Assembly (NCBI GenBank): GCA_964478235.1
Contig: CAYZGX010000001.1
Location: 163,850-227,849, forward strand
Source: an uncultured Gammaproteobacteria bacterium
Lineage (GTDB): Bacteria; Patescibacteriota; Patescibacteriia; Magasanikbacterales; GWA2-37-8
DNA: 64,000 bases
Direction: 5' to 3'
Part shown: positions 4,026 to 58,333 of the stretch, piece after piece
Layout of the letters: the number at the start of each line of letters is the position of its first letter
Numbering within the stretch: position 1 is the first letter of the stretch
Position numbers and translations under genes: made by a program
The notes under the pieces: model-generated
What the model saw: the letters and a program-made list of their open reading frames with translations, nothing else
Database searches by the model: none
What the model was told of the DNA's origin: nothing

Positions 4026-4033
4026 TCTTCAAC

Positions 4034-4063
4034 AAAAAAACCTGCCAACTGGCAGGTTTTTTT
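4034..4063. terminator. Bidirectional intrinsic terminator between rplS and uvrA
   Basis: A-run, hairpin CCTGCC-aact-GGCAGG, T-run. It serves the convergent rplS (+) and uvrA (-) genes. Confidence 0.6.
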
Positions 4064-4074
4064 GTTATGCTTAT

Positions 4075-6903
4075 TTATAAATATTTCCCGGTCCAACTCT
4101 TTTTATTTTTCTTTACTTCAGCCGGGGTGCCTTCGGCGACCACTTCCCCACCACCTTTACCGCCTTCTGGGCCCATATCAATCACCCAATCAGCTGAGCG
4201 GATAACATCAAGGTTGTGTTCAATCACAAGCACCGAATTACCTTTGGCGACCAACTGCGACAACACCTGGAGCAAACGTTTGGTATCTTCAAAATGCAGA
4301 CCAGTGGTTGGCTCATCAAGAATATATAAAGTATTGCCAGTAGAAGCGCGGGACAATTCTTGCGCTAATTTAATACGCTGCGCTTCACCGCCCGAAATAG
4401 TAGTCGCTGGCTGACCAAGTTCAACGTAGCCGAGACCCACTTCGCGAAGCACATTAAGTTTATCAGCAATCGCTGGAAACTCGCTAAAGAAACTATAGGC
4501 TTCTTCCACTGTCATCTTGAGGACATCAGCAATATGCTTGTTATGATATTTAATTTCGAGTGCTTCTTGATTATAGCGCAAACCATTACATTCATTACAC
4601 TCCACAAACACATCAGCCAAAAACTGCATTGGAATACGAACATAGCCTTCGCCAGCACACGCTTCACAACGCCCACCTTTTACATTGAAACTAAATTTAC
4701 CAGCATCATAGGAGCGCATGCGAGCTTCGGTGAGCGAAGCAAACAAATCGCGAATAAGGGTAAACACACCAGTATAAGTCGCTGGATTGGAACGTGGTGT
4801 TCGGCCAATTGGTGACTGGTCGATGGCAATAACTTTATCAATATTAGAAATGCCTTTGATACTTTTGTGTGCGCCCGGCTCATCTTTGGCACGATAAAAA
4901 TACTTAGACAAAGCTTTACTCAAGATATCGATAATCAAAGTAGATTTACCAGAACCAGACACACCAGTTACCGCCACTAATTTTTGAAGTGGAATCTCCA
5001 CATCAATATTTTTGAGATTAAACGCCTTAGCCCCAGTAATAATAAGAGATTTTGGCGGCAATTTAGCTGTCGCCTGTTTCTTTTTGAGACTGCGATATTC
5101 TTCGCTAATATCAATACGACCGCTCAAATACTCAGCCGTTAACGATTTTTTGTTTTTCTTAAACTCAGCCAATGTACCTTGGGCAATAATTGTTCCGCCA
5201 TAGACACCAGCACCCGGACCAACATCAATGATGTAGTCAGCTTCTTCCATCATCGCTGGATCGTGCTCTACCACCAAGACAGAATTGCCTAAATCACGGA
5301 GGTATTTAAGTGTTTTAATCAGTTTATCGTTATCACGAGGATGCAAACCAACTGACGGCTCATCCAAAATATAAATAACCCCGGTCAAACCAGCTGATAG
5401 CTGACTCGCCAAGCGAACACGGGTAACTTCACCACCAGACAAAGTATTCATCGAACGACTTAAGTGGAGGTATCCTAAACCAACCTCATCGAGATGTTCC
5501 AAACGAGGCATGATTTCTTTGAGCACAGGCTCAACCACTTTAGTTTGAATATTTTTACTCACCCCTTCGGTAGCTTTGCTAAAAATTTTCTTAAGAGCGA
5601 GCAAACTTTCTTCCACACTCATCGCCGCCATATCAGCAATAGTATATTCACCGATTCGAACAGCGAGCGATTCAGCTCGCAAGCGTTTACCTTGGCACAC
5701 CGGACAAATGCGCTCGCGCATGTATTGCTCAATTTCTTTACGAACGTATTCAGAGTTAGTCTCCAAATGCTTTTGCATCAAATCTGGAATAACCCCGGCG
5801 TAGGCAGCCTTTTTCCCTTCCACCTCATACAGCTCAGAGCCGCTACCATACAAAACAATATCCAATACTTTAGCTGGTAAATCACTAATCGGAGTATGAA
5901 CAGAAAAGCCATACTTATCAGCTACTTTGCTGAGCATTTTCTGATACCAACTCTGGTTGCCGGTAATGCGGGTCCACGGCTGAATCGCCCCTTCGGCCAA
6001 GGTAAGCTTGGTATTAGGGATAACCAACTGCGGATCAACTTCCATCGTTACACCAAGGCCAGTACAGCGAGGACACGCGCCGTAGGGGCTATTAAAACTA
6101 AAACTACGCATGTCGAGGCTCGGCATCACTTTGCCACATTTTGGACACAAACCAATAGTGGAAAAAAGTGTTGTCGTTTCATCACTCAAAACACGCACCA
6201 AACCGTTAGACAAATCCACCGCTGTTTCAACAGCCTTTGTCGGATCTTCTTTTTTAATATTAAGGATTTTGCCAACTAATAAATCAACGGTAAACATCTC
6301 TGACGCTGGAAACTCCATCTCCACAACTTCATTAATTTTTACCAAATCACCGTCGATGCGTACCCATTCATAACCTGATTTTTCAATCTTTTCAATCAAC
6401 TCTTTTTTATCCACCACACCTTCACGAACGAGCGGTGAAAAAATACAAACTTCTTTACTTTTACGAGCAATCTCACGAACCCGCTCCACAATTTCACCAG
6501 TAGAATACAATTTCACTGGAACATGACAATCAGGACAATGCTGAGTACCGACACGAGCAAAAAGCAAACGGAGATAGTCATAGATTTCCGTCACCGTACC
6601 AACAGTGGAGCGAGGATTTTGAGTAGAAACTTTTTGGTCAATCGCAATGGTCGGCGACAAACCATCAATTGCGTCAACATCGGGCTTATCTTGCACATCC
6701 ATAAACTGACGAGCAAACGACGACATTGATTCGGCATAGCGGCGCTGACCTTCGGCGTAAATAGTGTCAAAAGCTAAACTTGATTTACCTGAACCAGACA
6801 AACCAGTGACCACAACTAATTTATTTTTTGGAATATCGATCGAAACGTTTTTCAGATTATGCACCCGAGCTCCCTTAACTTTAATCATGTCCATAACAAA
6901 CAA
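4075..6903 (-). CDS. uvrA: Excinuclease ABC subunit A
   Basis: 942 aa with two ABC ATPase modules (Walker [10 protein letters not shown] and [14 protein letters not shown] signatures) and UvrA zinc-finger cysteines. Confidence 0.95.
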
Positions 6904-6925: not shown

Positions 6926-8383
6926 TTATTGAGCATAACTACCTTGCGGGTAAGTGCCCGAATCATTCACCACAGCCTCAACTGCTGTTCCGTCGAGATC
7001 GGCATTAGCCGTAATACCCGAAGGTAGCTGATCAAGCGGGAAATAATCTTTAATCGTGACTTGTTTATCCCAAACGCCAACCACTGCTGGGCCAGTATGA
7101 TCTTTGTAACCCACCACAAATCGGGCATCTTTACGGATAGTGTAATTAATATCCAACTCCCCGGTCAGGATAAACCCAACCAGCTCACCTTGTGAGCTAG
7201 AACACCAATCAGCCGGCCTGTAGGCATCAGTGAGGCTACTAAACATGGTTTCGTACGTATTAAACGTTCCTCCTTCACGTGTTACCACTTGATATCCTTC
7301 AGATCCCCCGCCCCATTCTTCATTGTCACCAATAGTCAGTTTGTTGGTGGCTGAATTTCGGCACACCCCATAAAAGGTAAAGGCGTTATCATCAAGCCAA
7401 TCTTTTGAGCCAATATTACTCCAATTGATTGGCAACTTAGCTGCCACCTGATCACTAAACGATGTCACCGCAAACCGCAAGAAAAGCTGGCCAGCCTTAC
7501 AACCATAGCGCATTTTTGCTCCTTCTGGAGTTTTCTTTTGCGGGTCATCAGCGTCAAGCTCTACACATGACGTACCAGCATTACAAACATTACCAAAACA
7601 AGTAGCGTCGCCACCTTCGGTCATGTAAAATCGGTGGCCACAATAAAATTTAGAGGTTTTAACTTCGCTGTACGGCAGGTCATATTTAATGGAAACATCT
7701 GGGGCTGGAATAGCGCTTATCTGATCGGTATATTCGCCAGCAAAATGAAACGAGGTAGTATCCGGAGCCCCAGTACAAAACTGCGGAACCATTGCTTGCG
7801 GACGAACCATCCAGGTTTGCGGCAAGCGAAACGCCACCAATGTCGGATTAACTGTTTGTAAAATAAAATACGAAGAGTACGCGATAAATAACCCAATTAA
7901 GGCCCCACCAATCCGACTCTTGGCACTCGAAATCGCTTCAGAATTGCCAGCCGAGGAGACCCATTGAATACCAGCAACAATAAGCACTAACACTGCCAAA
8001 ATAGCCGCAATACCAATCGCGTAGGTATAGTTAATTTGTAAAAATTCACCAATATTAGAAAATTCACTCTTCCCGCCAAAACTAATTTCTGTTTTGGTTT
8101 TACCCGAAGGCAGGCATTTTCCCCATTCACTGTCGCCACTTCCACCTTTACAGAGCCCCTCATTGGCTACAAAACCACCAACAGCTTGAGCGTATTCTTT
8201 ACTACCCGCTTGCAGTTGCGAAAAAGACTTGCCAGCGAGTTGTTGCGCCACAATTTCTTGGCAAGCCGAACGTTGCCAACATAAAGCGTTGAACTCTGGA
8301 ATACTGGTCTCGGCTTTTACGACCGAACCACCAATAAATAATGAAGCGAGGGTGCACAGGCCAAACACGAAGTGTTTTGACAT
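6926..8383 (-). CDS. Cysteine-rich secreted/surface protein with internal two-helix membrane hairpin (unknown function)
   Basis: Start chosen at the ATG giving the signal peptide MSKHFVFGLCTLASLFIGGSVVKA (the ORF track extends to 8473). More than 18 Cys residues lie in the extracellular domains. The central segment YAIGIAAILAVLVLIVAGIQWVSSAGNSEAISSAKSRIGGALIGLFIAYSSYFIL is a helix-loop-helix hairpin reminiscent of VirB2/TrbC-type pilins. Confidence 0.5.
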   Translation of the reverse strand: MSKHFVFGLCTLASLFIGGSVVKAETSIPEFNALCWQRSACQEIVAQQLAGKSFSQLQAGSKEYAQAVGGFVANEGLCKGGSGDSEWGKCLPSGKTKTEISFGGKSEFSNIGEFLQINYTYAIGIAAILAVLVLIVAGIQWVSSAGNSEAISSAKSRIGGALIGLFIAYSSYFILQTVNPTLVAFRLPQTWMVRPQAMVPQFCTGAPDTTSFHFAGEYTDQISAIPAPDVSIKYDLPYSEVKTSKFYCGHRFYMTEGGDATCFGNVCNAGTSCVELDADDPQKKTPEGAKMRYGCKAGQLFLRFAVTSFSDQVAAKLPINWSNIGSKDWLDDNAFTFYGVCRNSATNKLTIGDNEEWGGGSEGYQVVTREGGTFNTYETMFSSLTDAYRPADWCSSSQGELVGFILTGELDINYTIRKDARFVVGYKDHTGPAVVGVWDKQVTIKDYFPLDQLPSGITANADLDGTAVEAVVNDSGTYPQGSYAQ

Positions 8384-8478
8384 ACTGTTTACCAATAAAG
8401 AATAACTTTTTGTCGCTACAGACTGTAGCACACAAACGAGGTTTTGACAATGCTGACAGGTAAACCCGAACAATCGCC

Positions 8479-9234
8479 TTATTTATTCAAATAAGACGTG
8501 AGGTATTTTTGCCAGACAGTAAAGGGAATGGCTCCTTCTACCTTTTGACCATTTACAAAAAATGTCGGTGTTCCCACAACTCCACTACGGACGCCTTCCA
8601 AATAATCACGGCGAACTTTTTCGGCCGTTGCTGGATTGTCTAAGCATAATGTAAGCGGGCTGTACTCCAAATCTACCGCTGTCGCAATAGTATACACAGC
8701 TTCATCAGACAACGCTTCAGGGAGGGCTTCTTGATTAGCAAACAACCAATCGTGGAGCGGCCAATACCTGTTTTGAGCATAAGCACATTCAGCTAGCTCA
8801 GCTAATTTGGTAGCTCCCGGATGAAGTGTTTCTACTGGAAAATGACGAGTGATATAGGTGACACTGGTGCCATACGAAGACAGCACCTGTTTCATAACCG
8901 GCGCCGCAACACGACAATTTGGACATTTAAAATCAATGAATTCAACAATCACAATCGGAGCGCCTGGACGGCCAAGCATTGGACTTTTGGAATTATCAAG
9001 CTCTACCGACCCAGCCACAGCCGAGGTATGAGGCAAAGCATCAGTAAACTGCCCACGCCACTCAAGAGCTACTCCCGGGGTGGCGCCATGAGAGATCTGC
9101 CACCAATAACGAAGAGTGAACCCAATAATACAAAGAAGGAGGGCGCTAAACAAAAAACCAACGACAATGAGGACTATCCCCCACCATCGCTCAAACCATC
9201 GTCGTTTTGCTGGCGCCTCACTATCAAACGGCAT
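8479..9234 (-). CDS. Membrane-anchored DsbA-family thiol:disulfide oxidoreductase
   Basis: N-terminal TM helix followed by a thioredoxin fold with a CPNC active site (IVIVEFIDFKCPNCR) and DsbA-like C-terminal half. Confidence 0.75.
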   Translation of the reverse strand: MPFDSEAPAKRRWFERWWGIVLIVVGFLFSALLLCIIGFTLRYWWQISHGATPGVALEWRGQFTDALPHTSAVAGSVELDNSKSPMLGRPGAPIVIVEFIDFKCPNCRVAAPVMKQVLSSYGTSVTYITRHFPVETLHPGATKLAELAECAYAQNRYWPLHDWLFANQEALPEALSDEAVYTIATAVDLEYSPLTLCLDNPATAEKVRRDYLEGVRSGVVGTPTFFVNGQKVEGAIPFTVWQKYLTSYLNK

Positions 9235-9295
9235 AAGCTATTTATTAAGGAGTAGTATAACAAAAAAAGCCTCACCTGACTACTTCTGGTATTCA

Positions 9296-14106: not shown

Positions 14107-15942
14107 ATGTCGCACGACAAAAAAACAATGGTCGACGTTAGCCAAACAATTGACGAGTATCTTGATAAAAGCGATTGGCGGGTCAACGCCAACTCCAACC
14201 AAGGATTTTCACTTGGCGGGATGATCCTCAATATGGCTGGCAAAGTGACGGCCAACTACTGGCTGTCTCACGTCTATCCAAGCGAAGTCGGCGAAGCTCA
14301 TCGGAGTGGCGACATCCATATTCATGACCTTGATATGTTTTCTGGCTACTGTGCTGGCTGGAGCTTGCGCGCCCTCCTCGAGCAAGGCTTTAACGGTGTA
14401 CCAGACAAAATTGAATCAGGTCCGCCAAAACATCTTTCATCGGCCATCGCTCAAATGATTAATTTCTTGGGTACTCTCCAAAACGAATGGGCTGGAGCTC
14501 AAGCCTTCTCTAGTTTTGATACCTTCCTCTCACCATTTGTAAAAAAATATGAGCTAGAGTTGCGTGATACTATCAAAAAATATGGCATGCAATTTGAAAA
14601 TGAAGAAACCAAAGAAAAATATATTGCGAACGATGTCTATCAATACGTCTACCAAAACATGCAGTCATTTGTCTTTAACCTCAACATTCCTTCACGCTGG
14701 GGAACACAAACGCCGTTTACCAACATCACACTTGATTGGGATTGCCCCGCCGACCTCAAAGAAAAACGCCTCGTATTAGCCGGTAAGCCTTATGACTATA
14801 CCTACGGCGAACTCGAGCCGCAAATGGACATTATTAACCGAGCTTTTATTGAGGTGATGAGCAAAGGTGACGCTAAAGGACGAACCTTCACCTTCCCTAT
14901 TCCGACCTACAATATTGGTAAAGATTTTAAATGGGACGACCCAAAAAACCTCGCTCTCTTTGAAATGACTGCCAAATACGGCACCCCGTATTTCCAAAAT
15001 TTCATCAATTCAGAGCTAAACCCCGGAGATGTTCGCTCTATGTGCTGTCGTTTACAACTCGATCTCAAAGAACTGCGTAAACGTGGCGGCGGGCTTTTTG
15101 GCTCGGCTGAAATGACCGGATCAATTGGGGTGGTCACCATCAACGCCGCTCGCATCGGCTACACCAACCGTGGAAACAAAGAGGGTTTTTACAACCAAAT
15201 AAATCATCTCATGGAGCTGGCCAAAACCTCCCTCGAGATGAAACGAGTCGTTGTTCAAAAATGGATTGACGCCGGGCTCTTCCCCTTCACCAAACGCTAT
15301 CTCGGCTACCTCAAAAACCATTTCTCAACTATCGGCATCAACGGGTTAAACGAGGCTATTCGTAATTTCTCGAACGACACTGAAAATATTACTACTCCAA
15401 ACGGTCAAAAATTTGCCGAAGACGTATTGGTATTCATGCGTACTAAACTTCAAGATTTCCAAACCGAAACACGCAATCTCTATAACCTAGAAGCCACCCC
15501 GGCCGAAGGCGCCACCTACCGCTTTGCCAAAGAAGACCAAAAGAGGTTCCCTGATATTTTTCAAGCTGGCACCTACGAAGCACCCTACTACACCAACTCT
15601 TCACAAATCCCGGTCGGTTTCACCGACGATGTCTTTGAAGCGCTTCTACTCCAAGACAAACTCCAAACAAAGTACACTGGCGGGACAGTGCTCCACTGTT
15701 ATATGAGTGAAAAAATCAGCAGTCCCGAAGCTTGTCGAAATCTAGTGAGAAAAATCTTAAACAATTTCCGCCTACCCTATATCACTATCACCCCGACATT
15801 CTCCATTTGTCCAAAGCACGGCTATTTAACCGGAGAATACGACTTTTGCCCGCGCTGCGACGCCGAAAACGGACTACAACCTGGTGTTCACTTTGATACC
15901 ACCATGCGTAATAAACACCGCAGTCTTATCCCTCAATTATAA
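14107..15942 (+). CDS. nrdD: Anaerobic ribonucleoside-triphosphate reductase NrdD (class III RNR), catalytic body and zinc ribbon; ORF terminates before the glycyl-radical motif
   Basis: 611 aa. Class III RNR core (CCRL, finger-loop cysteines) and a C-terminal zinc ribbon ICPKHG...FCPRC. The ORF stops 27 aa later without the RVxGY glycyl-radical motif. Confidence 0.9.
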   Translation: MSHDKKTMVDVSQTIDEYLDKSDWRVNANSNQGFSLGGMILNMAGKVTANYWLSHVYPSEVGEAHRSGDIHIHDLDMFSGYCAGWSLRALLEQGFNGVPDKIESGPPKHLSSAIAQMINFLGTLQNEWAGAQAFSSFDTFLSPFVKKYELELRDTIKKYGMQFENEETKEKYIANDVYQYVYQNMQSFVFNLNIPSRWGTQTPFTNITLDWDCPADLKEKRLVLAGKPYDYTYGELEPQMDIINRAFIEVMSKGDAKGRTFTFPIPTYNIGKDFKWDDPKNLALFEMTAKYGTPYFQNFINSELNPGDVRSMCCRLQLDLKELRKRGGGLFGSAEMTGSIGVVTINAARIGYTNRGNKEGFYNQINHLMELAKTSLEMKRVVVQKWIDAGLFPFTKRYLGYLKNHFSTIGINGLNEAIRNFSNDTENITTPNGQKFAEDVLVFMRTKLQDFQTETRNLYNLEATPAEGATYRFAKEDQKRFPDIFQAGTYEAPYYTNSSQIPVGFTDDVFEALLLQDKLQTKYTGGTVLHCYMSEKISSPEACRNLVRKILNNFRLPYITITPTFSICPKHGYLTGEYDFCPRCDAENGLQPGVHFDTTMRNKHRSLIPQL

Positions 15943-15965
15943 CTTACTTACCAACTAAATAATCT

Positions 15966-16169
15966 ATGGAAAACACTACTACACCAACCAGAACTCGTTG
16001 CGAAATTTGGACTCGTGTTATGGGTTATCATCGACCGCTATCACATTTTAATATCGGAAAAAAATCAGAGCACATCTCACGCAAGCACTTTACCGAATGC
16101 GTTTCAGCCAATAGTATTTTTATCAAAAAATACGCTCACCTTGGCCAACCACTCTACACTACTCGCTAA
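15966..16169 (+). CDS. nrdD: NrdD C-terminal glycyl-radical domain encoded as a separate 67-aa ORF in another frame (gene fragment or split gene)
   Basis: TRTRCEIWTRVMGYHRPLSHFNIGKKSEHISRKHF carries the class III RNR glycyl radical signature (RVxGY...NxGKxxE...R). It lies in frame 0 whereas the nrdD body is in frame 1. Confidence 0.6.
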   Translation: MENTTTPTRTRCEIWTRVMGYHRPLSHFNIGKKSEHISRKHFTECVSANSIFIKKYAHLGQPLYTTR

Positions 16170-16175
16170 GCTACT

Positions 16176-16880
16176 ATGCTTATTTCTGGCATACAACCTT
16201 TTACCTTGCTCGATTACCCTGGAAAAACCGCGTGCGTTGTCTTTTTGCCAGGTTGTAATTTTAGATGTGGCTACTGCCACAACAAGGAGTTTGTTTTACC
16301 AGAAAAAATAAAAGAGCTTCAAGGAAACTTTATCGATGAAGAGGTGGTCTACAATTTTCTCATCAACCGTCGCGATTTACTTGATGGCGTAGTTATTTCC
16401 GGAGGCGAGCCAACTATGATGCCTGACCTCATTCCCTTCATGCAAAAAATAAGACGACTAGGCTTTTCGGTGAAACTAGACACCAACGGCAACCGACCAG
16501 ATGTCATCACCAAAGCACTCGAGCTTCGTACCGTTGACTATATTGCCATGGATCTTAAGACCGACCTCCCCACCTATACCGCACTTGTAGGAAACGGCGC
16601 CAAAAAAGATGCGCTCGAACAAAGTATTAGCATTCTCCTCAACAGTCCGATTGACTACGAGTTCCGCTCCACCATTATCAAAGAAGTTCACTCAGACGCT
16701 ATTCTTGAAAGGATGGCTCAAGCTATCGCTGGAGCTAAACACTGGTATTTACAAAATTTCAGACCAGAAAACACTCTAGCTCCACACTTTGCCAACTACC
16801 ACCCTTTTGAAGAAGTAGAACTCAAAAAAATAGCTGAATATCTCAGCCCCTACGTACACAAACTAACTATTCGCTCATAA
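16176..16880 (+). CDS. nrdG: Anaerobic ribonucleotide reductase activating protein (radical SAM)
   Basis: N-terminal LLDYPGKTACVVFLPGCNFRCGYCHN carries the CxxxCxxC radical-SAM cluster motif typical of NrdG. Confidence 0.9.
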   Translation: MLISGIQPFTLLDYPGKTACVVFLPGCNFRCGYCHNKEFVLPEKIKELQGNFIDEEVVYNFLINRRDLLDGVVISGGEPTMMPDLIPFMQKIRRLGFSVKLDTNGNRPDVITKALELRTVDYIAMDLKTDLPTYTALVGNGAKKDALEQSISILLNSPIDYEFRSTIIKEVHSDAILERMAQAIAGAKHWYLQNFRPENTLAPHFANYHPFEEVELKKIAEYLSPYVHKLTIRS

Positions 16881-16886: not shown

Positions 16887-16916
16887 ACCCGGTCGCAGAA
16901 AGCGATCGGGTTTTTA
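16887..16916. terminator. Intrinsic terminator after nrdG (also facing the 3' end of rnpB)
   Basis: Hairpin CCCGGTCGC-agaa-GCGATCGGG followed by TTTTT. Confidence 0.6.
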
Positions 16917-16918
16917 AG

Positions 16919-17361
16919 TGTTTACAGCAATAAGCCGAATTTTGTTCCCCTTACGGGGTGATAATCATTTCTCTTGCCGGTACATTGCTATACCGATCAT
17001 CTGCCCGTCCTAAAGCTTTTAAGCTGACAGATATACTAGCGAGCGAACTTTCCGAGGCTATACCTGATGTATAGACACGCTGCTCTTGCACCAGATAGGG
17101 TTTAGCACTTGCTCTCTATTGCTAAAGAGCCGAGTAGAGTAGCTGTAGTCTTAAGAACAACAACTCCCCTACACTTTTCACCTTTCATCCCGATTATAGC
17201 CGGAATTAGTATTGTCTCTGTGCCACTGTCCCGAAGCGGATATTGCTATACGCCTGGTGGAGGTTATCCACTATCCTTGTCCCAATAGGTAGCGATAAAA
17301 ATTGGGGGTGTTCGGACTTTCCTCGACGACCCAAAGGTCGGCGCGATTATCTACTGTAAAC
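16919..17361 (-). ncRNA. rnpB: RNase P RNA, bacterial type A
   Basis: The reverse strand contains CGAGGAAAGTCCGAACAC (CR-I/P4), GGATGAAAGGTGAAAAGTG (P10-P12 GGGUGAAA region) and ACAAAATTCGGCTTATTGCTGTAAAC (CR-V ACAGAAnnCGGCUUA), with a P1 pairing to the 5' GTTTACAG. A promoter lies immediately upstream. Confidence 0.8.
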
Positions 17362-17367
17362 GGGCGT

Positions 17368-32519: not shown

Positions 32520-33656
32520 TTATTTTACATTTTTAACCACCACTCGGATACGATCAGGCGAGGTCGGCGCCCCACTCATCCACGACGGAGAGAATTTTAC
32601 ATCCACCCCAACAACATGGTCGAGGCCGAGGACATATCGCTGGATTTCTTCCTTGGTTTTACTAACAAAATTGGTTGGTGCTAATTTTTCTACATTTGCA
32701 TCAAGGGTCACCAGGGCATCTTGAGCCACCTGAAGCTCGGCTGTGCCGTCTTTAAGACTGAACGACGAAACAGATACTGTTGGTTTTTTATCAGCTGCTA
32801 AAAATTTCTCTGCTGTAAGATCAATTTTACTAGAAACTTCACGGGCAATTCTATCGGTGAGATCTTTAGCGTTGTACATCACTACCACGAGGGTACTGGT
32901 ACCACTTACGTCAAAGGCAGCCACCTGATCACCAGCCGAAGCTGATGCTCTAGCGCTCTGACTAGCAATACTAACACTCACTTCTATCCCGTCGGTCGCT
33001 AATGTTTTCAAAAAGGCTTGTTTTACTTTTTCTTTATAATTATTTTCAGCGCTAGTGATATCGTCTTGGCTAAGCACCGCCACTGTCTGCGATCCACCAA
33101 TCATTGCTGCCTTACTTTCAGCGTAAATTGTCTTTTGTTTTACTTCGATCAAACCTGGGATAGTAAAGGTAGTCGGAGCAACATCACCGAGAGGACCCGG
33201 CTGGTCAGCATAGACCGGCACAGTCACCTGGCCTTGTGGTGGCACAGTGGTATTAACCGATAAACGGAATAACACGCCGGTTGGTGACAACAAACGAGTT
33301 GTTTTAACGAGCGGCTGAGCTAAACCGGTTTTATTATAAATAATCACTTCACCTTTTGAGGTACCAGCAACTGATTTAGTGCCAGTTGGCTGGTATTTTT
33401 CAGTATGAGAAAAAATAGTTGAGGTAACACTTCCCGGCATCGAGCCTGGCTTAACCCCTTCTTGGCTCAACGTAACGTTGAGAGTCACCTTTTTAGCATC
33501 TTCTTTAGCAACAATCGTAACTTCCGCTTTCTTGGACGTGATAAAAATAACCACTCCCAAAAGAGCAATGGTTATCAATAAAAATGACACTGCGACTATC
33601 TTATACCACTCCGGGGACGAGTCCCCCGAATTGGTTGACATACGATGTGTTATCAT
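32520..33656 (-). CDS. Hypothetical membrane-anchored protein (N-terminal TM, Ser/Thr/Val-rich extracytoplasmic domain)
   Basis: 378 aa. TM helix IVAVSFLLITIALLGVVIFI. No recognisable catalytic motif. Sits downstream of pilB. Confidence 0.5.
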   Translation of the reverse strand: MITHRMSTNSGDSSPEWYKIVAVSFLLITIALLGVVIFITSKKAEVTIVAKEDAKKVTLNVTLSQEGVKPGSMPGSVTSTIFSHTEKYQPTGTKSVAGTSKGEVIIYNKTGLAQPLVKTTRLLSPTGVLFRLSVNTTVPPQGQVTVPVYADQPGPLGDVAPTTFTIPGLIEVKQKTIYAESKAAMIGGSQTVAVLSQDDITSAENNYKEKVKQAFLKTLATDGIEVSVSIASQSARASASAGDQVAAFDVSGTSTLVVVMYNAKDLTDRIAREVSSKIDLTAEKFLAADKKPTVSVSSFSLKDGTAELQVAQDALVTLDANVEKLAPTNFVSKTKEEIQRYVLGLDHVVGVDVKFSPSWMSGAPTSPDRIRVVVKNVK

Positions 33657-33715
33657 AGAAATGCGGTTGCCCCGTTAGTATAGCACAAAAAAGGGCGTTT
33701 GTGGTGTGGACAAGC

Positions 33716-35470
33716 TTATTCTGTCACCCGGAAGATTTCGTCAATAGTGGTAATCTTGTCGAGCGCCTTGAGTAAACCATCCTGAGCCATGGTCACCATG
33801 CCGTTTTTAACGGCAATTTCCTGAATAGTATACTCCGATAAGTTACCGCTCAGAATAATTTCTTCAATTTCCTTGTTCATCGTAAAAATCTCATAAATAC
33901 CAATACGACCCTTATAACCGATATTACTACACACCTCACAACCTTTGCCTTTATAAAAATGCAGGTTGTTCATATCGACATTCTTCTGCTCAGCTGGCGG
34001 CAAGGTGGTGAGTAGTTGTTTTACTTTTTCCATTTTCTCAGCTGGCGGAGTATCCTCTACAATGCAATTACTACAAATACGGCGCACCAAACGCTGGCCA
34101 ATCACCGAATTGAGGGACGGTGCCAAAAGAAACGGCCGAACCCCCATCGATAAAAAGCGCGGCAAGGCACCAGAAGCGCTATTGGTATGAATAGTAGATA
34201 ACATCAAATGACCAGTCAAAGCAGCCTGAATAGCAATTTCCGCCGTTTCTAAATCCCGGATTTCACCAACCATACAAATATCTGGATCTTGGCGTAAAAT
34301 ACTGCGTAAGCCTTTGGCAAAAGTATAATCTCGTCCTGGATCAACCTGACTTTGGTTAATCCCCTCCATTTTAATTTCAATCGGATCTTCCAGGGTAATA
34401 ATTTTTACCCCTGGTTTGTTGAGGGTGCGTAAAATTGCGTACAACGTCGTGGTTTTACCACTGCCAGTTGGACCAGTGGTAATAATCATACCATTTGGTC
34501 GTTCAATTTCTTTTTTGAGACGATCATGAGCGTCACCACGCAAACCAAGCTCATCAAACGTCACCCCTTTACTACCGCTGTGCAAAATACGCATAACCAC
34601 ACTCTCCCCATGAATAGTCGGAAGTGTAGAAACACGAATATCGAGACCGCCTGAGGGCAGCTGAAGGGTCACACGACCATCTTGCGGACGATCCGTCACG
34701 TTTAACTTTAACGCTGCCAAAAGCTTGATACGCGATATAAATCGTTTCCACTGCTCTTTTGGAAGCATGGTAATGTCGTGTAAAATACCATCAATACGAT
34801 AGCGAACTGCAATGCCACCCTCTTCAGCTTCAACGTGCATATCTGAAGAACCGAGCTTAATAGCTGACGCCACCATCAGTGTCAAAATATCAGTGATCGA
34901 AACATTAACAAAAGCTTGTTTTAAACTATCCAAGTTATTAATGCCTACATTATAGCGATTCATTTCTTCTTCGCTAATAATCACGTCTTTGGTGACTGGC
35001 TTATAAATAGGCAGCGTGGCGTAGAGAGCAATAATTTTCTGATAACTACGCTCAGAAATAAGGTAAACTTGAACATTAGAACCTTGTTTAGCCGCTAAAT
35101 CCGCTCTAATCTGTTCAACTCCTGGTGTGGCCGCGAGCGCCCCGATACGCGCCTGTTCATTGGAAAAATAAAAACAAATGGCTTTTTCTTTTTCAGCCAC
35201 CTCTTGAGGGATTGCTCGAAGAGCTTCCGAAGAAACTGGAAAATTTGTGAGATCAATGTAGGGCAGCCCTGCTTGTGCCGCCTGTGTTGCCACCTGTTCC
35301 TCTTTATCACGAACCGCAATTTCATCCATCTTATGCTGAAAGGCGTCACCGGCACTCGTGCCAGCCGGCGTATGCGAAGAAGGCGCCCCTGCTGGAGCAG
35401 TCGCCGCCGGCGCAGCGCCAGAGGCTGGCTTTTTTTTCACCAAATCATTAATCGATGGGAAATCAGACAT
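33716..35470 (-). CDS. pilB: Type IV pilus assembly ATPase PilB / GspE family
   Basis: GspII_E N-domain, Walker A GPTGSGKTTTLYA, Asp and His boxes, C-terminal tetracysteine CSNC...CEVC. Confidence 0.9.
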   Translation of the reverse strand: MSDFPSINDLVKKKPASGAAPAATAPAGAPSSHTPAGTSAGDAFQHKMDEIAVRDKEEQVATQAAQAGLPYIDLTNFPVSSEALRAIPQEVAEKEKAICFYFSNEQARIGALAATPGVEQIRADLAAKQGSNVQVYLISERSYQKIIALYATLPIYKPVTKDVIISEEEMNRYNVGINNLDSLKQAFVNVSITDILTLMVASAIKLGSSDMHVEAEEGGIAVRYRIDGILHDITMLPKEQWKRFISRIKLLAALKLNVTDRPQDGRVTLQLPSGGLDIRVSTLPTIHGESVVMRILHSGSKGVTFDELGLRGDAHDRLKKEIERPNGMIITTGPTGSGKTTTLYAILRTLNKPGVKIITLEDPIEIKMEGINQSQVDPGRDYTFAKGLRSILRQDPDICMVGEIRDLETAEIAIQAALTGHLMLSTIHTNSASGALPRFLSMGVRPFLLAPSLNSVIGQRLVRRICSNCIVEDTPPAEKMEKVKQLLTTLPPAEQKNVDMNNLHFYKGKGCEVCSNIGYKGRIGIYEIFTMNKEIEEIILSGNLSEYTIQEIAVKNGMVTMAQDGLLKALDKITTIDEIFRVTE

Positions 35471-35479
35471 AAACTCCTA

Positions 35480-36508
35480 CTATTTTCGACGCTTAAAACC
35501 AAACCAATGGAGCACTCGACTCGAAACACCTTCATGGTGCATTTTAATAAACATGTACATCCAACTGCTAGTGATAAAAGCGTGAAAAATACCGCCAACA
35601 ATGGCAATAATTAAAACATATAGTGCGAGTGTGGCGTAAATACCAAAAGCAATAAGCGAAGTAAAACCAGTGGCTGCGCCAACCAAAGTGAGGATAACTG
35701 ATGGGGTCAAAATCCACAAACCACCAAAGATAAAGGCCATCATCAAAGCAATACTCAAAATCAACTCAATAATAGCGAGCTCCAAAGAAACCAGTACGTG
35801 ATGTTCAAAAAGCAGACGGCCTTTGGTAATGGCTGTGCCAAGGCTATTTTCGTCGTGAACAATGTAACCGGAAGCATATTTTGCAATAGTCGAAACGGCA
35901 AAAGCTACCACAAAACCAGCTGAGAAAATAAGCGCGTTAACATAGAACGCTCCCCAACCAAGCAAATTATTACCGCTAAAAGCAACTAATAGATAACCGA
36001 CAGCTAAAAAATTGACCGCTAAAACAAATCGTTCTAACACTTTCATTCCGAGCAGACGCCAAAAATGTTTCACCCCTTTATGCCACGAGCGCGAGGTAGT
36101 CGGAGTGCGACCGAGAAGCGAAAAAGCCCCAGTACTCGCCGCGATCAAAGCCCCTTCAGCTGCCACTGACACTAAAATAACTAAGACAAGAACAGCCAAA
36201 AGTACCACCAAAAGCCAGAGCGACCAAACGTTCAAAAATGGCGACCACAAATAAGATGATGCTAGCAGTGACCAGTCTGACAAATGTAGTAAACGGTTCT
36301 CATCAATCGCCAGAACTCTCCCCACAAAATTTGGTAGACCGAATTGGCCAACCAACGCCGATAATAAACCGAAAATCCACAAAATTTTAGTGTGCCAGAC
36401 GAGTTGCCAGGCTTTTGTCAGCGCTTGTCGATATGTTGGCTCCAACATACATGAAGAAATAGTTACTAAGTAACGACTAGTATAGCACATTTTAACTAAA
36501 CAAACCAA
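35480..36508 (-). CDS. Hypothetical polytopic membrane protein
   Basis: Eight to nine predicted TM helices and no PilC/GspF signature. The start may lie at an internal Met (MLEPTYRQ). Confidence 0.45.
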   Translation of the reverse strand: MVCLVKMCYTSRYLVTISSCMLEPTYRQALTKAWQLVWHTKILWIFGLLSALVGQFGLPNFVGRVLAIDENRLLHLSDWSLLASSYLWSPFLNVWSLWLLVVLLAVLVLVILVSVAAEGALIAASTGAFSLLGRTPTTSRSWHKGVKHFWRLLGMKVLERFVLAVNFLAVGYLLVAFSGNNLLGWGAFYVNALIFSAGFVVAFAVSTIAKYASGYIVHDENSLGTAITKGRLLFEHHVLVSLELAIIELILSIALMMAFIFGGLWILTPSVILTLVGAATGFTSLIAFGIYATLALYVLIIAIVGGIFHAFITSSWMYMFIKMHHEGVSSRVLHWFGFKRRK

Positions 36509-55769: not shown

Positions 55770-56495
55770 TTATTTTCCAGTATACTCTATTTCACTTTCA
55801 TCTAATCGTTTGAGGCCTTCACCGCTGATTGCTTGTTCATGGGCGTGAGCGACCAAGCCGGGTAGGCGCCCTACCAAGAAAAACCCTTTAGCTAGTTCGG
55901 CTGGATACCCCATATCAAGAATAATCGCCGCCATCGCCCCATCGATATTGATCGGTAGTGGTTTAGAGGTTAACGATTGCAATTCTTTGCCAAAAGCTAC
56001 TGCTAAAGCACAATGTTGTTTATAAAAACCGGTCTTTTTTGCCAAAGCCAAGAGTGTTTTAGCTCGCTCATCGACAGCCAGCACCTTGTGCCCATAGCCC
56101 GGTACGCGAACCTTAGCATCTTTGAGTCGTTTTGCCAACCCTGCCAAGTCACGCTCGTGGATATACGCCTCAAAAAAATGCCCGGCACCCTCTATGGCCC
56201 CACCATGAAGCTCGCCGAGAGCTTGGACCCCAGCCGAGACCGCAGTATGAAGGCTATTACCCGTTGAAGCCACCGTGCGAGCAACTGTCGCCGACGGAGC
56301 GCCGACCCCATGATCAATTGCTGCCACAAACAACGCATTTAGCATTTTAGTTTGTTTAGCACTTGGCATTGATCCGGTCCACAAAAGAGCAATAACTTCA
56401 ACAAAACTCTTTTGTTGAATAAGAGCTGTTAATTTTTTACCACGAATACGTTCCCCTTCTTCGGTAATCTGCGTCAAAGCTGTTTTCCATTGCAT
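55770..56495 (-). CDS. Stand-alone citrate-synthase C-terminal-domain protein (citryl-CoA lyase-like)
   Basis: 241 aa. LGELHGGAIEGAGHF (HGGA catalytic His) and RVPGYGHKVLAVDERAK (GYGH catalytic His plus acidic residue) correspond to the citrate synthase catalytic triad region. The large N-terminal CS domain is absent. Confidence 0.7.
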   Translation of the reverse strand: MQWKTALTQITEEGERIRGKKLTALIQQKSFVEVIALLWTGSMPSAKQTKMLNALFVAAIDHGVGAPSATVARTVASTGNSLHTAVSAGVQALGELHGGAIEGAGHFFEAYIHERDLAGLAKRLKDAKVRVPGYGHKVLAVDERAKTLLALAKKTGFYKQHCALAVAFGKELQSLTSKPLPINIDGAMAAIILDMGYPAELAKGFFLVGRLPGLVAHAHEQAISGEGLKRLDESEIEYTGK

Positions 56496-56504
56496 ACAAA
56501 TACA

Positions 56505-57449
56505 TTAATAATTATAGCGATCATTATAACGATCTCGACGAAACACCCATTTAAGGATCAAATATAGAACAACGATACTCAGCACTGCTGCTGCCACCCG
56601 TTTTGGCTCATTATTATCAGTAATCACGAGCCAGCCTCGTTTCATTCCTTCAAAATAAGGCGCCGCTACAGCTGTATACTCTTTAAACTTGTAGTACCAA
56701 GCCTCGCCTTGGGCAATCGCTGACTTTGTTTGATTATACGCTGAGGTAATCCTGCCGGCGGTTGTTGTGATGGTTGAGGCAACATCTTCGGCCCTATTTA
56801 ACAGCTGACGGTTTTTATCCAACACTTCTTGGAAAGACGATTCGTCAGTTGTCGAAGTATTTTGCGGAGAAGCGGTGAGCATGGCCACAATTTTTTCACC
56901 CAAGACTTGTGGAGATAATTTCTTTTTTGCTCCGTCATCTACAACTTCCAAAGCAACCGACCCCAAAACAACATTGGCAATAGCCCCCGATCCAGCTGAG
57001 CCAGCAGCGGCCACCTGATCAACCGTTACTGGAGTAGCTGTTTTTGCTCCCAAAGTGAGCGGCGAGCCAGTAGAGCGGACTGTTTGTTCCAATGGAACCG
57101 TTGAAGTAGCTCCAGACAGCGTTCGTGCCAGAAGCGATTCCAATCGAGCTTGGACAGCATGCTCTCCTGAACTCGGTTGCCAGACAGCTTTAAGCTGAAC
57201 AGCCTGCTCTTTAGTCAAAGATGTAAAAGGGGTGGTGGTAATAAGCGTTTCATTGTCATAAAACCCCACCACACCATCAAGCAATGGATAGTCGTTATTA
57301 ATAACAACTGTATACAAAGTTATTGGTTGGGAAGCAGAAAAGGTTGTTGTCGAAAACCACAGACCAGTGCTTGGCACAAACCCAACAGTCGCCGCAGAAA
57401 CGGCGTTTGGGAATAAAAATAAAGCTAATACTACGAGAATACTACGCAT
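56505..57449 (-). CDS. Hypothetical secreted protein with signal peptide and C-terminal TM anchor
   Basis: Start at MRSILVVLALFLFPNAVSA, 4 nt after the upstream stop. Ser/Thr/Ala-rich body and C-terminal hydrophobic anchor AAAVLSIVVLYLILKWVF. Confidence 0.5.
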   Translation of the reverse strand: MRSILVVLALFLFPNAVSAATVGFVPSTGLWFSTTTFSASQPITLYTVVINNDYPLLDGVVGFYDNETLITTTPFTSLTKEQAVQLKAVWQPSSGEHAVQARLESLLARTLSGATSTVPLEQTVRSTGSPLTLGAKTATPVTVDQVAAAGSAGSGAIANVVLGSVALEVVDDGAKKKLSPQVLGEKIVAMLTASPQNTSTTDESSFQEVLDKNRQLLNRAEDVASTITTTAGRITSAYNQTKSAIAQGEAWYYKFKEYTAVAAPYFEGMKRGWLVITDNNEPKRVAAAVLSIVVLYLILKWVFRRDRYNDRYNY

Positions 57450-58332: not shown

Positions 58333-58333
58333 A

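What the first reader, a model, noticed from the sequence alone, without database searches (positions are those of the whole stretch)
6926..9234. Cysteine-rich secreted protein with a pilin-like membrane hairpin, adjacent to a membrane DsbA-type oxidoreductase
The 6926..8383 product has a cleavable-looking signal peptide and more than 18 cysteines. They occur in paired contexts (LCWQRSAC, LCKGGSGDSEWGKC, CFGNVCNAGTSC, YGCKAG, GVCRN, WCSSS), typical of disulfide-stabilised extracellular domains. It also has an internal helix-loop-helix hydrophobic hairpin (LIVAGIQWVSSAGNSEAISSAKSRIGGALIGLFIA) resembling VirB2/TrbC-type pilin or conjugative-pilus subunits. The next gene on the same strand (8479..9234) is a TM-anchored thioredoxin-fold protein with a CPNC active site (DsbA/BdbD-like). 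The pair looks like a dedicated oxidative-folding module for an exported, possibly surface-filament or host-interaction protein. For an organism of this apparent lifestyle such a Cys-rich exoprotein is unusual.
Basis: partly seen in the sequence, partly recalled or inferred. Interest (0 to 1): 0.55.

Follow-up and report, generated by a model that had tools for sequence, protein, structure and literature searches.

The report
Pilin-like surface protein with DsbA partner
In an ultra-small (Patescibacteria, Magasanikbacteria-type) bacterium, a conserved gene pair encodes a membrane protein built on a conjugation-pilin-like helical hairpin that displays two disulfide-bonded outer domains, plus the thioredoxin-fold enzyme that most likely forms or repairs those bonds. 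Both parts are known kinds, but their strict pairing and this domain layout have not been described.

Summary
The genes are real, but both lie on the minus strand, so the DsbA-like gene (8479-9234) is upstream of the Cys-rich gene (6926-8383). The 485-aa product has 13 cysteines (12 in the mature protein), not more than 18. All 12 are conserved in at least 88 of 93 homologues, and two pairs are lost only together. The hairpin matches Pfam T4SS_pilin (PF18895), the VirB2-like family of Patescibacteria. It is embedded between a 4-Cys N-terminal ectodomain and an 8-Cys beta-rich C-terminal ectodomain with no significant PDB fold match.

In GTDB species representatives, 59 of 59 full-length family members have the DsbA-like gene immediately upstream and 54 of 56 have uvrA immediately downstream. 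The block sits among housekeeping genes, with no T4SS genes nearby. Divergent relatives keep the hairpin and the DsbA neighbour but swap the ectodomains.

Unexpectedly, 31 of 75 partner oxidoreductases have CxxS/T instead of CxxC, from at least 11 independent changes. The window's copy is CPNC.

Best reading: a hairpin-anchored, disulfide-stabilised surface protein (a modular VirB2-like pilin) served by a dedicated thiol-disulfide oxidoreductase or isomerase. This is a new variant of known kinds and moderately interesting.

The parts
8479..9234 (-). Gene for a membrane-anchored DsbA/BdbD/MdbA-type thiol-disulfide oxidoreductase (251 aa)
   Evidence: PF13462 at 84.4 bits and PF01323 at 53.9 bits. 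Nearest solved relatives are 3gyk, BdbD 3eu3 and the DsbA-named chain 4pwo. It is immediately upstream of the hairpin gene in 59 of 59 full-length family loci.
9112..9186 (-). N-terminal TM anchor of the oxidoreductase (aa 17-41), preceded by KRRWFER
   Evidence: Hydropathy peak of 3.05. The basic N-flank predicts an N-in orientation with the catalytic domain outside (inference).
8914..8925 (-). Active-site CPNC codons (C104-P-N-C107)
   Evidence: Read from the sequence. C104 is invariant in 75 of 75 orthologues. C107 is replaced by S or T in 31 of 75.
8384..8478 (-). 95-nt spacer between the two genes, with a promoter-like site at 8450-8422
   Evidence: TTGTCA-17-TACAGT, 9 of 12 matches; consensus match only. 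In relatives the called-gene gap ranges from an 11-nt overlap to 16 nt.
6926..8383 (-). Gene for the 485-aa Cys-rich, hairpin-anchored protein (ATG at 8383, stop at 6926-6928)
   Evidence: 97 homologues, with E-values down to 0. The start was chosen by alignment with homologues. The AF2 model has pLDDT 88 and pTM 0.79.
8312..8383 (-). Sec signal peptide (aa 1-24, predicted cleavage VKA|ETS)
   Evidence: Sequence inspection, hydropathy and model helix 2-17. No lipobox, LPxTG or class III pilin motif.
8054..8311 (-). N-terminal ectodomain (aa 25-110) with four conserved Cys (35, 41, 78, 90)
   Evidence: C35, C41 and C90 are invariant and C78 is present in 92 of 93. Small alpha/beta domain in the model.
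7835..8053 (-). VirB2/T4SS_pilin-like helix-loop-helix membrane hairpin (aa 111-183). The Pfam match covers aa 118-177, which is 7853-8032.
   Evidence: PF18895 above gathering score. Model helices 111-143 and 148-178. It is the most conserved region of the protein, at 65% mean identity. G138, G146, K155 and G164 are invariant.
6929..7834 (-). C-terminal beta-rich ectodomain (aa 184-485) with eight conserved Cys
4075..6903 (-). uvrA, co-directional and 22 nt downstream. Probably co-transcribed, with no functional link implied.
   Evidence: Translation. UvrA is immediately downstream in 54 of 56 family loci. No strong terminator-like site lies between the genes.
4030..4067 (.). Bidirectional terminator-like hairpin that ends the unit after uvrA
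   Evidence: 16-17 pairs followed by a T-run on both strands.
9254..9282 (-). Promoter-like site upstream of the DsbA-like gene, in the divergent spacer shared with secG
   Evidence: 9 of 12 matches; consensus match only.

Best explanation
The locus is a core-genome transcription unit, DsbA-like -> hairpin protein -> uvrA, of a Magasanikbacteria-type Patescibacterium.

Shown:
- The 485-aa product has a Sec signal peptide, a 4-Cys N-terminal domain, a VirB2/T4SS_pilin-family helical hairpin and an 8-Cys beta-rich C-terminal domain.
- All 12 mature cysteines are conserved and behave as pairs.
- A TM-anchored DsbA/MdbA-type thioredoxin-fold protein is always encoded immediately upstream.

Inferred:
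- After Sec export and signal-peptide cleavage, the hairpin sits in the membrane with its short basic loop (AKSRIG) in the cytoplasm. Both Cys domains are then outside, next to the catalytic domain of the anchored oxidoreductase.
- The oxidoreductase forms and/or reshuffles about six disulfides in this one main client. Other exported proteins in the window have 0-1 Cys.
- The hairpin is far more conserved than a passive anchor needs to be (65% identity against 17-31% for the C-domain, with invariant Gly and Lys). It therefore probably mediates specific helix packing: self-assembly or docking to a membrane machine, as VirB2 pilins do.
- The fast-evolving, lineage-swapped ectodomain is the exposed business end, for host or envelope contact.

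In short, it works like a modular pilin: a VirB2-like polymerisation or anchoring module carrying a grafted disulfide-stabilised surface domain, with its own folding catalyst. The F-plasmid TrbB/TraF proteins and the Cys-rich TraN, TraU and TraH are a comparable arrangement.
For: - Architecture.
- Cys conservation, co-loss of two pairs and even parity in 88 of 93.
- Cys enrichment of 2.68% against 0.59% (P about 1e-5), while the exported SBP (651 aa) and other signal-peptide or TM ORFs have 0-1 Cys.
- Gene adjacency: 8 of 8 genomes with called genes, and 59 of 59 full-length plus 13 of 17 divergent loci among GTDB species representatives. This includes lineages where uvrA is no longer adjacent, namely Uhrbacteria L078 and L086, Buchananbacteria L084, and L088.
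- Conserved hairpin against variable ectodomain.
- Ectodomain replacement on the same hairpin at the same genomic position, with 30-44-Cys repeat domains and a VanY/Peptidase_M15 domain in L088.
- The hairpin superfamily is very large, with 40,470 representatives at E<=1e-3 and 599 at E<=1e-30.
- Literature. VirB2-like pilins are part of an essential T4SS in Saccharibacteria (PMC10633639; PMC12857230) and are widespread in Patescibacteria (PMC12102498). MdbA-like oxidoreductases are CPR-enriched (PMC6744442). A Magasanikbacteria genome carrying this family (L040, KKQ41219.1) also has a VirB4-TrsD-VirB3 cluster (PMC12102498 Table S3). For F-plasmid TrbB/TraF and Cys-rich Tra clients, see PMC11315126.
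Against: - No T4SS gene was found among the window ORFs scanned, nor within 8-10 kb in 8 related genomes. No second hairpin gene is in the window.
- The protein is four to five times larger than a canonical VirB2 pilin.
- The whole neighbourhood (RNase J, SBP, SecG | DsbA, X, UvrA | L19, Gmk, RluD) is syntenic. Within Magasanikbacteria, adjacency alone could therefore be inherited gene order.
- 31 of 75 partner proteins lack the resolving Cys while their neighbours keep 12-41 Cys, so classical DsbA-type oxidation cannot be the universally conserved activity.
- Two DsbA-adjacent hairpin proteins in L084 have only 0-2 Cys.
- Disulfide geometry could not be read from the model because no coordinates were available.
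- Localisation, oligomerisation and function are untested.
Confidence: 0.55

Rival explanations
1. It is a housekeeping envelope protein. The hairpin is only a membrane anchor unrelated to any T4SS, and the ectodomains act in cell-wall or envelope biogenesis rather than in host contact. The DsbA-like protein still folds it.
For: It has a core-genome position among housekeeping genes and is essentially single-copy in every species representative. No T4SS genes are nearby. One positional relative carries a VanY/Peptidase_M15 cell-wall domain on the same hairpin (L088). There are no relatives on plasmids or viral contigs.
Against: The hairpin is the most conserved part of the protein, with invariant Gly and Lys residues, which is more than a passive anchor needs. 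The ectodomain is fast-evolving and swapped between lineages, which is typical of exposed interaction surfaces rather than conserved enzymes. No catalytic family matched this C-domain.
Confidence: 0.2
2. It is a true polymerising pilin. It is the major or a minor/tip subunit of the Patescibacterial T4SS pilus, so each incorporated subunit decorates the filament with a 300-aa head domain.
For: It belongs to Pfam T4SS_pilin. It has the same topology as VirB2, with a cleaved signal peptide, two helices and a basic loop. Magasanikbacteria with this family have a VirB4-TrsD-VirB3 cluster, and the published table lists no pilin gene beside it. Modular pilins with grafted domains are known for type IV pili (PMC8179133, title and abstract listed).
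Against: Extra domains at both ends of every subunit would be hard to fit into a VirB2-type helical lattice if it were the major subunit (inference from published pilus structures, not tested here). The gene is not in a T4SS cluster. There is no experimental evidence for any T4SS pilus in this lineage.
Confidence: 0.12
3. The pairing with the DsbA-like gene is inherited synteny without functional coupling. The cysteines would then be oxidised spontaneously or by another enzyme, or some would bind metal.
For: The whole block is syntenic across Magasanikbacteria. 41% of the neighbours lack a full CxxC. Two DsbA-adjacent hairpin proteins have 0-2 Cys (L084).
Against: The adjacency survives where flanking synteny breaks: L001 has a different upstream gene, and L078, L084, L086 and L088 have lost the uvrA adjacency. 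The nucleophilic Cys104, the cis-Pro and the C150/C197 pair are invariant or nearly so in the partners, so a thiol-active function is under selection. In relatives with called genes the gaps are tiny or overlapping; the window's own gap is 95 nt. This is the only Cys-rich exported protein in the window.
Confidence: 0.1

Closest known systems
VirB2-like pilins of Patescibacteria (Pfam PF18895 T4SS_pilin), such as the essential pilin array in the Southlakia epibionticum T4SS cluster
   Same: The same Pfam family for the helix-loop-helix module, a signal peptide followed by two hydrophobic helices with a short basic loop, and the same phylum (PMC10633639, PMC12102498).
   Different: Here the hairpin is embedded in a 485-aa protein with two disulfide-rich ectodomains. 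The gene is single-copy in a housekeeping block next to a DsbA-like gene and uvrA, not in an array beside virB4. The family member in Magasanikbacteria GW2011_GWA2_37_8 (KKQ41219.1) is not among the VirB2 hits listed for that genome in the 2025 survey.
Canonical VirB2/TrbC conjugative pilins (Pfam PF04956)
   Same: The same topology, with weak but recurrent sequence similarity. 12 of 26 hairpin modules hit PF04956, with a best E of 2e-5.
   Different: It scores below the PF04956 gathering score (14.7-18.5 against 27.9 bits). It is four to five times larger, there is no adjacent VirB3, VirB4 or VirB6, and no sequence match to any solved pilin.
DsbA/BdbD/MdbA thiol-disulfide oxidoreductases of monoderm bacteria, and the CPR-enriched MdbA-like family fam000318 of Meheust et al. 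2019
   Same: A thioredoxin fold with an inserted helical domain, CPxC, a cis-Pro loop and an N-terminal membrane anchor. The family was previously proposed to fold pilins in CPR (PMC6744442).
   Different: The proposed client here is a VirB2-like hairpin protein rather than type IV or sortase pilins. No VKOR or DsbB is nearby. In 41% of orthologues the motif is CPxS/T, against 11% without CxxC reported for the CPR family as a whole.
F-plasmid TrbB (CXXC disulfide isomerase) and TraF (thioredoxin fold without CXXC), with their Cys-rich clients TraN, TraU and TraH
   Same: A secretion or pilus system that carries its own thioredoxin-fold folding factor for Cys-rich extracytoplasmic components, including variants without a full CXXC (PMC11315126). 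There is a weak NCBIfam hit to TrbB, E 0.024.
   Different: There is no significant homology to TrbB or TraF. This is a monoderm, chromosomal, core-genome setting with a single apparent client encoded next door.
Modular type IV pilins (such as Streptococcus sanguinis PilB)
   Same: The concept only: a pilin module with a functional domain grafted to its C-terminus (PMC8179133, title and abstract listed).
   Different: A different pilin class. There is no class III signal peptide or G|FTLIE motif here, and the assembly machinery is unrelated.

Membership tests
T4SS_pilin / VirB2-like pilin (PF18895) | Profile match at or above the Pfam gathering score | tested here: met
   26.9 against 26.6 bits on the full protein and 30.2 bits on the isolated module. 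All 26 hairpin modules of family members and relatives match, with a best E of 6e-15.
T4SS_pilin / VirB2-like pilin (PF18895) | Cleavable signal peptide followed by two hydrophobic helices joined by a short basic loop | tested here: met
   Signal peptide aa 1-24. Helices 111-143 and 148-178 in the AF2 model. KD hydropathy is 2.18 for aa 119-140 and 1.58 for aa 158-178. The loop is SSAKSRIG, with K155 invariant and R157 in at least 90%.
T4SS_pilin / VirB2-like pilin (PF18895) | Small single-module protein (mature pilin of roughly 70-120 aa) | tested here: not met
   485 aa, with an 86-aa N-domain and a 302-aa C-domain flanking the hairpin.
T4SS_pilin / VirB2-like pilin (PF18895) | Encoded in or next to a T4SS gene cluster (VirB3, VirB4, VirB6, TrsD) | tested here: not met
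   None among the window ORFs scanned. None within 8-10 kb in 8 related genomes with Pfam-annotated genes.
T4SS_pilin / VirB2-like pilin (PF18895) | Polymerises into an extracellular pilus | not testable with these tools
   Needs microscopy, proteomics or multimer modelling.
TrbC/VirB2 (PF04956) | Profile match at or above the gathering score (27.9 bits) | tested here: not met
   14.7 bits on the full protein and 18.5 bits on the module.
DsbA/BdbD/MdbA thiol-disulfide oxidoreductase | Thioredoxin fold with an inserted helical domain (DsbA-type profile) | tested here: met
   PF13462 at 84.4 bits over profile positions 3-163 of 165, and PF01323 at 53.9 bits. PDB sequence hits to BdbD 3eu3 and 4pwo.
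DsbA/BdbD/MdbA thiol-disulfide oxidoreductase | CxxC active site | tested here: met
   CPNC at aa 104-107 in the window. Across orthologues only 44 of 75 have CxxC and 31 of 75 have CxxS/T, so the feature is not conserved family-wide.
DsbA/BdbD/MdbA thiol-disulfide oxidoreductase | cis-Pro loop opposite the active site | tested here: met
   T222-P223 in GTPTFF. TP is present in 73 of 75 orthologues. The cis conformation itself is inferred.
DsbA/BdbD/MdbA thiol-disulfide oxidoreductase | Extracytoplasmic catalytic domain | tested here: inconclusive
   There is a single N-terminal TM segment (aa 17-41) after a basic stretch. The orientation is predicted, not measured.
DsbA/BdbD/MdbA thiol-disulfide oxidoreductase | Re-oxidising partner (DsbB or VKOR) in the genome | tested here: inconclusive
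   None among the Pfam-scanned ORFs of the 64-kb window or within 8-10 kb in relatives. The rest of the genome is not available.
Type IV pilin | Class III signal peptide with G|[FM]T[LI][IVL]E | tested here: not met
   The regular-expression search found no match.
Sortase-assembled Gram-positive pilin (the classical MdbA client) | C-terminal LPxTG sorting signal | tested here: not met
   No LPx[TSA]G motif in the protein.

The most novel reading that the evidence does not exclude
The thioredoxin-fold partner may not be a classical DsbA. It could instead be a client-dedicated, quinone-independent folding and assembly factor that needs only its nucleophilic cysteine. It would work as an Eug1p/ERp44-style isomerase or mixed-disulfide chaperone, or be charged by small-molecule disulfides, which would explain at least 11 independent CxxC to CxxS/T changes. 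Its client would be the Magasanikbacteria version of the Patescibacterial T4SS pilin: a modular VirB2-like subunit that carries the host-recognition head and is encoded in the core genome away from virB4. If so, the pair would be the lineage's principal host-attachment determinant and a handle on how quinone-less CPR bacteria make disulfides.
Probability: 0.2. Interest if true: 0.75.

Novelty: new variant of a known kind. Interest (0 to 1): 0.5.

Why it matters
VirB2-like pilins are part of a T4SS that is essential for the epibiotic life of the only genetically tractable Patescibacterium. What they do is unknown, and Gram-positive-type T4SSs normally have no pilin.

This locus shows three things. 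First, the pilin hairpin is used in one large CPR lineage as a conserved module carrying interchangeable, disulfide-rich surface domains. Second, it comes with its own thiol-disulfide enzyme in a strictly conserved gene pair. Third, that enzyme repeatedly loses the cysteine that classical disulfide oxidases need.

This gives a defined two-protein system that can be expressed heterologously. It could be used to test how quinone-less ultra-small bacteria fold extracellular proteins, and which surface proteins are candidates for host recognition. The 2025 survey's table does not list the family member in at least one genome that carries it, so counts of pilin-less T4SS loci in ABY1 may need revisiting.

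Tried and rejected
- The afdb50 library was unavailable, so annotated AlphaFold relatives were not checked.
- Model coordinates are not exposed, so disulfides could not be mapped in 3D. I used Cys co-loss and parity instead.
- A profile of the hairpin against PDB sequences gave no pilin hit.
- A word-indexed homologue search with the hairpin alone found nothing. With the C-domain alone it found only two family members, so neither says anything about the domains outside this family.
- There are no relatives in IMG/VR viral contigs or PLSDB plasmids. I therefore rejected a mobile-element origin.
- The Rfam scan found no RNA feature in 6926-9234.
- I rejected the longer TTG-initiated ORF (to 8473), because homologues align from the ATG at 8383.
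- Sequence inspection suggested that L080 (second copy) carries a VanY-like domain and L086 an NlpC/P60-like domain. Pfam did not confirm either. Only the VanY domain in L088 was confirmed.
- The supplementary tables of Meheust 2019 could not be searched for fam000318 neighbours.
- A lone VirB2 hit (gene 380, KKQ40626.1) in the 2025 T4SS table for Magasanikbacteria GW2011_GWA2_37_8 is not this family's protein, which is KKQ41219.1.
Full report
**1. Observation**

The two ORFs exist as described, at 6926..8383 and 8479..9234, but both are on the minus strand. The thioredoxin-fold gene is therefore upstream of the Cys-rich gene, and uvrA (4075..6903) follows 22 nt downstream on the same strand.

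The ATG at 8383 is the right start. Homologues align from this Met, and the longer TTG ORF adds unaligned residues.

The cysteine count is wrong. The 485-aa product has 13 Cys. C10 lies in the signal peptide and is not conserved. The 12 mature Cys are at 35, 41, 78, 90 and at 203, 248, 262, 267, 273, 295, 341, 394.

The enrichment is still real. Cysteine is 2.68% of the protein against 0.59% in the other 49 ORFs of the window. It is the highest of all 50, with Poisson P about 1e-5. Other exported or membrane proteins in the window have 0-1 Cys, for example the 651-aa solute-binding protein.

**2. The Cys-rich protein**

Hydropathy and an AlphaFold2 model built on 93 sequences (pLDDT 88, pTM 0.79) give the following layout:

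| Region | Residues | Features |
|---|---|---|
| Signal peptide | 1-24 | predicted cleavage VKA\|E |
| N-domain | 25-110 | small alpha/beta domain, 4 Cys |
| Hairpin | 111-183 | two long helices (111-143, 148-178) joined by a short basic loop |
| C-domain | 184-485 | mainly beta, 8 Cys |

The hairpin is the only TM pair, so this is not a polytopic protein. With a cleaved signal peptide and two TM helices, both Cys-bearing domains fall outside the cell. This topology is inferred, not measured.

Pfam places the hairpin in T4SS_pilin (PF18895). The score is 26.9 bits against a gathering threshold of 26.6 on the full protein and 30.2 bits on the isolated module. There are sub-threshold hits to DUF6112 and to TrbC/VirB2. 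All 26 hairpin modules taken from family members and divergent relatives hit PF18895, with a best E of 6e-15, and 12 hit TrbC, with a best E of 2e-5. There is no LPxTG, lipobox or class III pilin signal.

**3. The family**

The word-indexed search found 97 homologues of 450-600 aa. Almost all are from Candidatus Magasanikbacteria or unclassified Patescibacteria, and NCBI names several of them 'pilin'. A profile search of 1.84 billion cluster representatives found 599 proteins at E<=1e-30, 12,621 at E<=1e-10 and 40,470 at E<=1e-3. This means a sizeable full-length family nested in a very large hairpin superfamily.

Conservation of the cysteines over 93 aligned sequences at 27-50% identity:
- All 12 mature Cys are present in at least 88 sequences.
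- C248 and C262 are lost together in 3 of 3 cases.
- C341 and C394 are absent together in 4 sequences (C341 is missing in 4, C394 in 5).
- The mature Cys count is even in 88 of 93.

This is the signature of intramolecular disulfides. I could not map them in 3D because model coordinates are not exposed.

Conservation is very uneven along the protein:

| Region | Mean identity to the window protein |
|---|---|
| Hairpin module | 65% |
| N-domain | 39% |
| C-domain (three segments) | 31%, 17%, 24% |

The cytoplasmic loop and second helix are the least variable stretch. G138, G146, K155 and G164 are invariant.

**4. Genomic context and co-conservation**

In eight distinct genomes with called, Pfam-annotated genes, the layout is always the same: DsbA-like (PF13462) -> family protein -> UvrA on one strand. 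The homologues there are 26-36% identical. The DsbA-to-family gap ranges from an 11-nt overlap to 16 nt.

The flanks are secG, an SBP_bac_5 gene and RNase J on one side, and L19, Gmk and RluD on the other. L001 has L31 and RF-1 upstream instead. No VirB4, VirD4, VirB6, VKOR or DsbB lies within 8-10 kb.

A scan of one genome per GTDB species returned 80 loci. I searched their six-frame ORFs with HMMs built here:

| Locus type | DsbA-like immediately upstream, same strand | UvrA immediately downstream |
|---|---|---|
| Full-length family members | 59 of 59 | 54 of 56 |
| Divergent loci (mostly only the hairpin matches) | 13 of 17 | 8 of 16 |

The DsbA link therefore outlasts the uvrA link. Examples are Uhrbacteria L078 and L086, Buchananbacteria L084, and L088.

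These divergent positional relatives keep the signal peptide and the hairpin but carry different ectodomains. Several have 30-44 Cys in repeat-like modules (L072, L075, L077-L079, L087, L090). L088 carries a VanY/Peptidase_M15 domain, at 31.8 bits against a threshold of 25. A counter-example is L084, where two tandem hairpin proteins with 0-2 Cys still follow a DsbA-like gene.

The family has no relatives in IMG/VR viral contigs or PLSDB plasmids. The window contains no second hairpin gene. In the window, the only strong terminator-like hairpin lies after uvrA at 4030-4067. Promoter-like sites lie upstream of the DsbA-like gene and in the 95-nt spacer (consensus matches only).

**5. The thioredoxin-fold partner**

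The 251-aa protein has these features:
- An N-terminal TM segment (aa 17-41) after a basic stretch.
- A DsbA-type thioredoxin domain: PF13462 at 84 bits, PF01323 at 54 bits.
- The active site CPNC at aa 104-107.
- A TP (cis-Pro) loop.
- A second Cys pair, C150 and C197.

Its nearest solved relatives by sequence are 3gyk, B. subtilis BdbD (3eu3) and a 250-aa chain deposited as 'DsbA' (4pwo, 4pwp). Assigning 4pwo/4pwp to a Corynebacterium MdbA rests on my own recall, not on that output.

The unexpected result came from aligning the 75 partners that sit directly upstream of a hairpin gene:
- 44 have CxxC.
- 31 (41%) have Cxx[S/T], mainly CPNT, CPNS, CPYS and CPFS.
- C104 is invariant in 75 of 75.
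- TP is present in 73 of 75.
- C150 and C197 are present in 75 of 75.
- No compensating Cys appears in the CxxS/T class.

Fitch parsimony on a neighbour-joining tree needs at least 11 independent changes from a CxxC root. The neighbouring hairpin proteins keep 12-41 Cys regardless of the partner's motif.

The resolving cysteine is therefore repeatedly dispensable. A classical DsbA cycle needs both cysteines and a DsbB or VKOR plus quinone. That cycle cannot be the universally conserved activity. An isomerase or mixed-disulfide chaperone role, or oxidation driven by small-molecule disulfides, fits better across the family. This is inference from general thioredoxin-fold enzymology. The window's own copy is CPNC and may act classically.

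**6. Comparison with what is known**

- Meheust et al. 2019 (PMC6744442) reported a CPR-enriched, membrane-anchored MdbA-like oxidoreductase family. It has CxxC in 89% of members and VKOR as its third most frequent neighbour. They proposed it folds type IV pilins.
- Wang et al. [quoted passage not shown]
- Quinonero-Coronel et al. 2025 (PMC12102498) found VirB2-like proteins (PF18895, PF04956) in 1,948 assemblies, near virB4 in 1,135, often as arrays. A term search of the main text found no mention of thioredoxin or oxidoreductase neighbours, or of uvrA; multi-domain VirB2-like proteins were not raised in the passages I read.
- Their Table S3 for Magasanikbacteria GW2011_GWA2_37_8 lists VirB4-TrsD-VirB3 (genes 794-796) and one distant VirB2 hit (gene 380, KKQ40626.1). 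The family member from that same assembly (L040, KKQ41219.1) is not listed. Genomes with this family therefore do have a T4SS elsewhere, and that survey's table omits the family member in at least this genome.
- F-like plasmids offer a functional precedent. The CXXC isomerase TrbB and the CXXC-less thioredoxin-fold TraF serve Cys-rich T4SS proteins TraN, TraU and TraH (PMC11315126).

**7. Interpretation**

Firmly supported:
- This is a conserved Magasanikbacteria/ABY1 gene pair: a TM-anchored thiol-disulfide oxidoreductase and a signal-peptide-bearing protein.
- In that protein, a VirB2-family hairpin carries two ectodomains whose conserved, co-varying cysteines almost certainly form about six disulfides.

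Likely:
- The oxidoreductase acts mainly on this client. The evidence is strict adjacency beyond general synteny, very small gaps or overlap in relatives, and the fact that it is the only Cys-rich exported protein nearby.

Inferred:
- The strongly conserved hairpin mediates specific assembly, either self-association or docking to the T4SS.
- The fast-evolving, lineage-swapped ectodomain is the exposed interaction surface. This makes the protein a modular VirB2-like pilin.

It does not meet the membership criteria of a canonical pilin on size or on T4SS-cluster location, so I describe what it works like rather than filing it as a pilus subunit.

Rivals:
- An envelope-biogenesis protein with the hairpin as a mere anchor.
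- A true polymerising pilin.
- Adjacency without function.

**8. Verdict**

One important complication is the recurrent loss of the second active-site cysteine in orthologous partners.

The components are known kinds. The strict pairing, the core-genome position, the modular architecture and the monothiol drift are, as far as the searchable literature shows, undescribed. I rate it a new variant of a known kind, with interest about 0.5.

Noticed in passing
window 55770-60724 (-): A cluster that looks like an ATP-citrate-lyase or citryl-CoA-synthetase/lyase set. It contains a 241-aa protein matching only the C-terminal part of citrate synthase, a SucD-like CoA-binding/ligase protein (296 aa), a 384-aa ORF that starts like SucC but was not scanned by Pfam, and two ORFs with no Pfam hit. 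This is unexpected in a phylum described as lacking the TCA cycle.
   Followed up: no
L011-L090 and A3/dsba alignment: 41% of the DsbA-like proteins paired with hairpin genes have CPxS/T instead of CPxC, from at least 11 independent changes. The nucleophilic Cys, the cis-Pro and a second Cys pair stay invariant or nearly so.
   Followed up: partly
L088:5444-6478 (+): A T4SS_pilin hairpin fused to a VanY/Peptidase_M15 (D-Ala-D-Ala carboxypeptidase-like) domain, directly after a DsbA-like gene. The pilin hairpin is therefore used as a carrier for cell-wall enzymes as well.
   Followed up: partly
L032:5613-8885 (+); L084:684-2500 (+); L089:2466-6612 (+): Tandem duplications of hairpin proteins. 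L032 has two full-length copies after one DsbA-like gene. L084 (Buchananbacteria) has two copies with 0-2 Cys. L089 (Paceibacterota) has three copies and no DsbA-like gene on the contig.
   Followed up: no
record titles of L011, L015, L016, L018 and others: Many MAGs carrying this Magasanikbacteria-type locus and synteny are titled 'uncultured Gammaproteobacteria bacterium', including a 1.23-Mb chromosome, OZ246405.1. The record titles appear to be placeholders or mislabels.
   Followed up: no
window 32520-36508 (-): A T2SSE/PilB-type ATPase (33716-35470, 398 bits) flanked by two ORFs with no Pfam hit (378 aa and 342 aa; the former has a hydrophobic N-terminal segment). These are probably type IV pilus genes.
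   Followed up: no
window 4030-4067: A near-perfect bidirectional terminator-like hairpin (16-17 pairs, T-runs on both strands) between the convergent uvrA and L19 genes.
   Followed up: no
window 16915-17362 (-), 14107-16880 (+): RNase P RNA class A (141 bits), next to an anaerobic ribonucleotide reductase and activase pair (NrdD/NrdG-like by translation). Five tRNAs lie elsewhere in the window.
   Followed up: no
L040 / P0115 (KKQ41219.1): The family member in Magasanikbacteria GW2011_GWA2_37_8 has an extra Cys-containing N-terminal extension of about 140 aa. It is absent from the VirB2 list for that genome in the 2025 Patescibacteria T4SS survey.
   Followed up: partly
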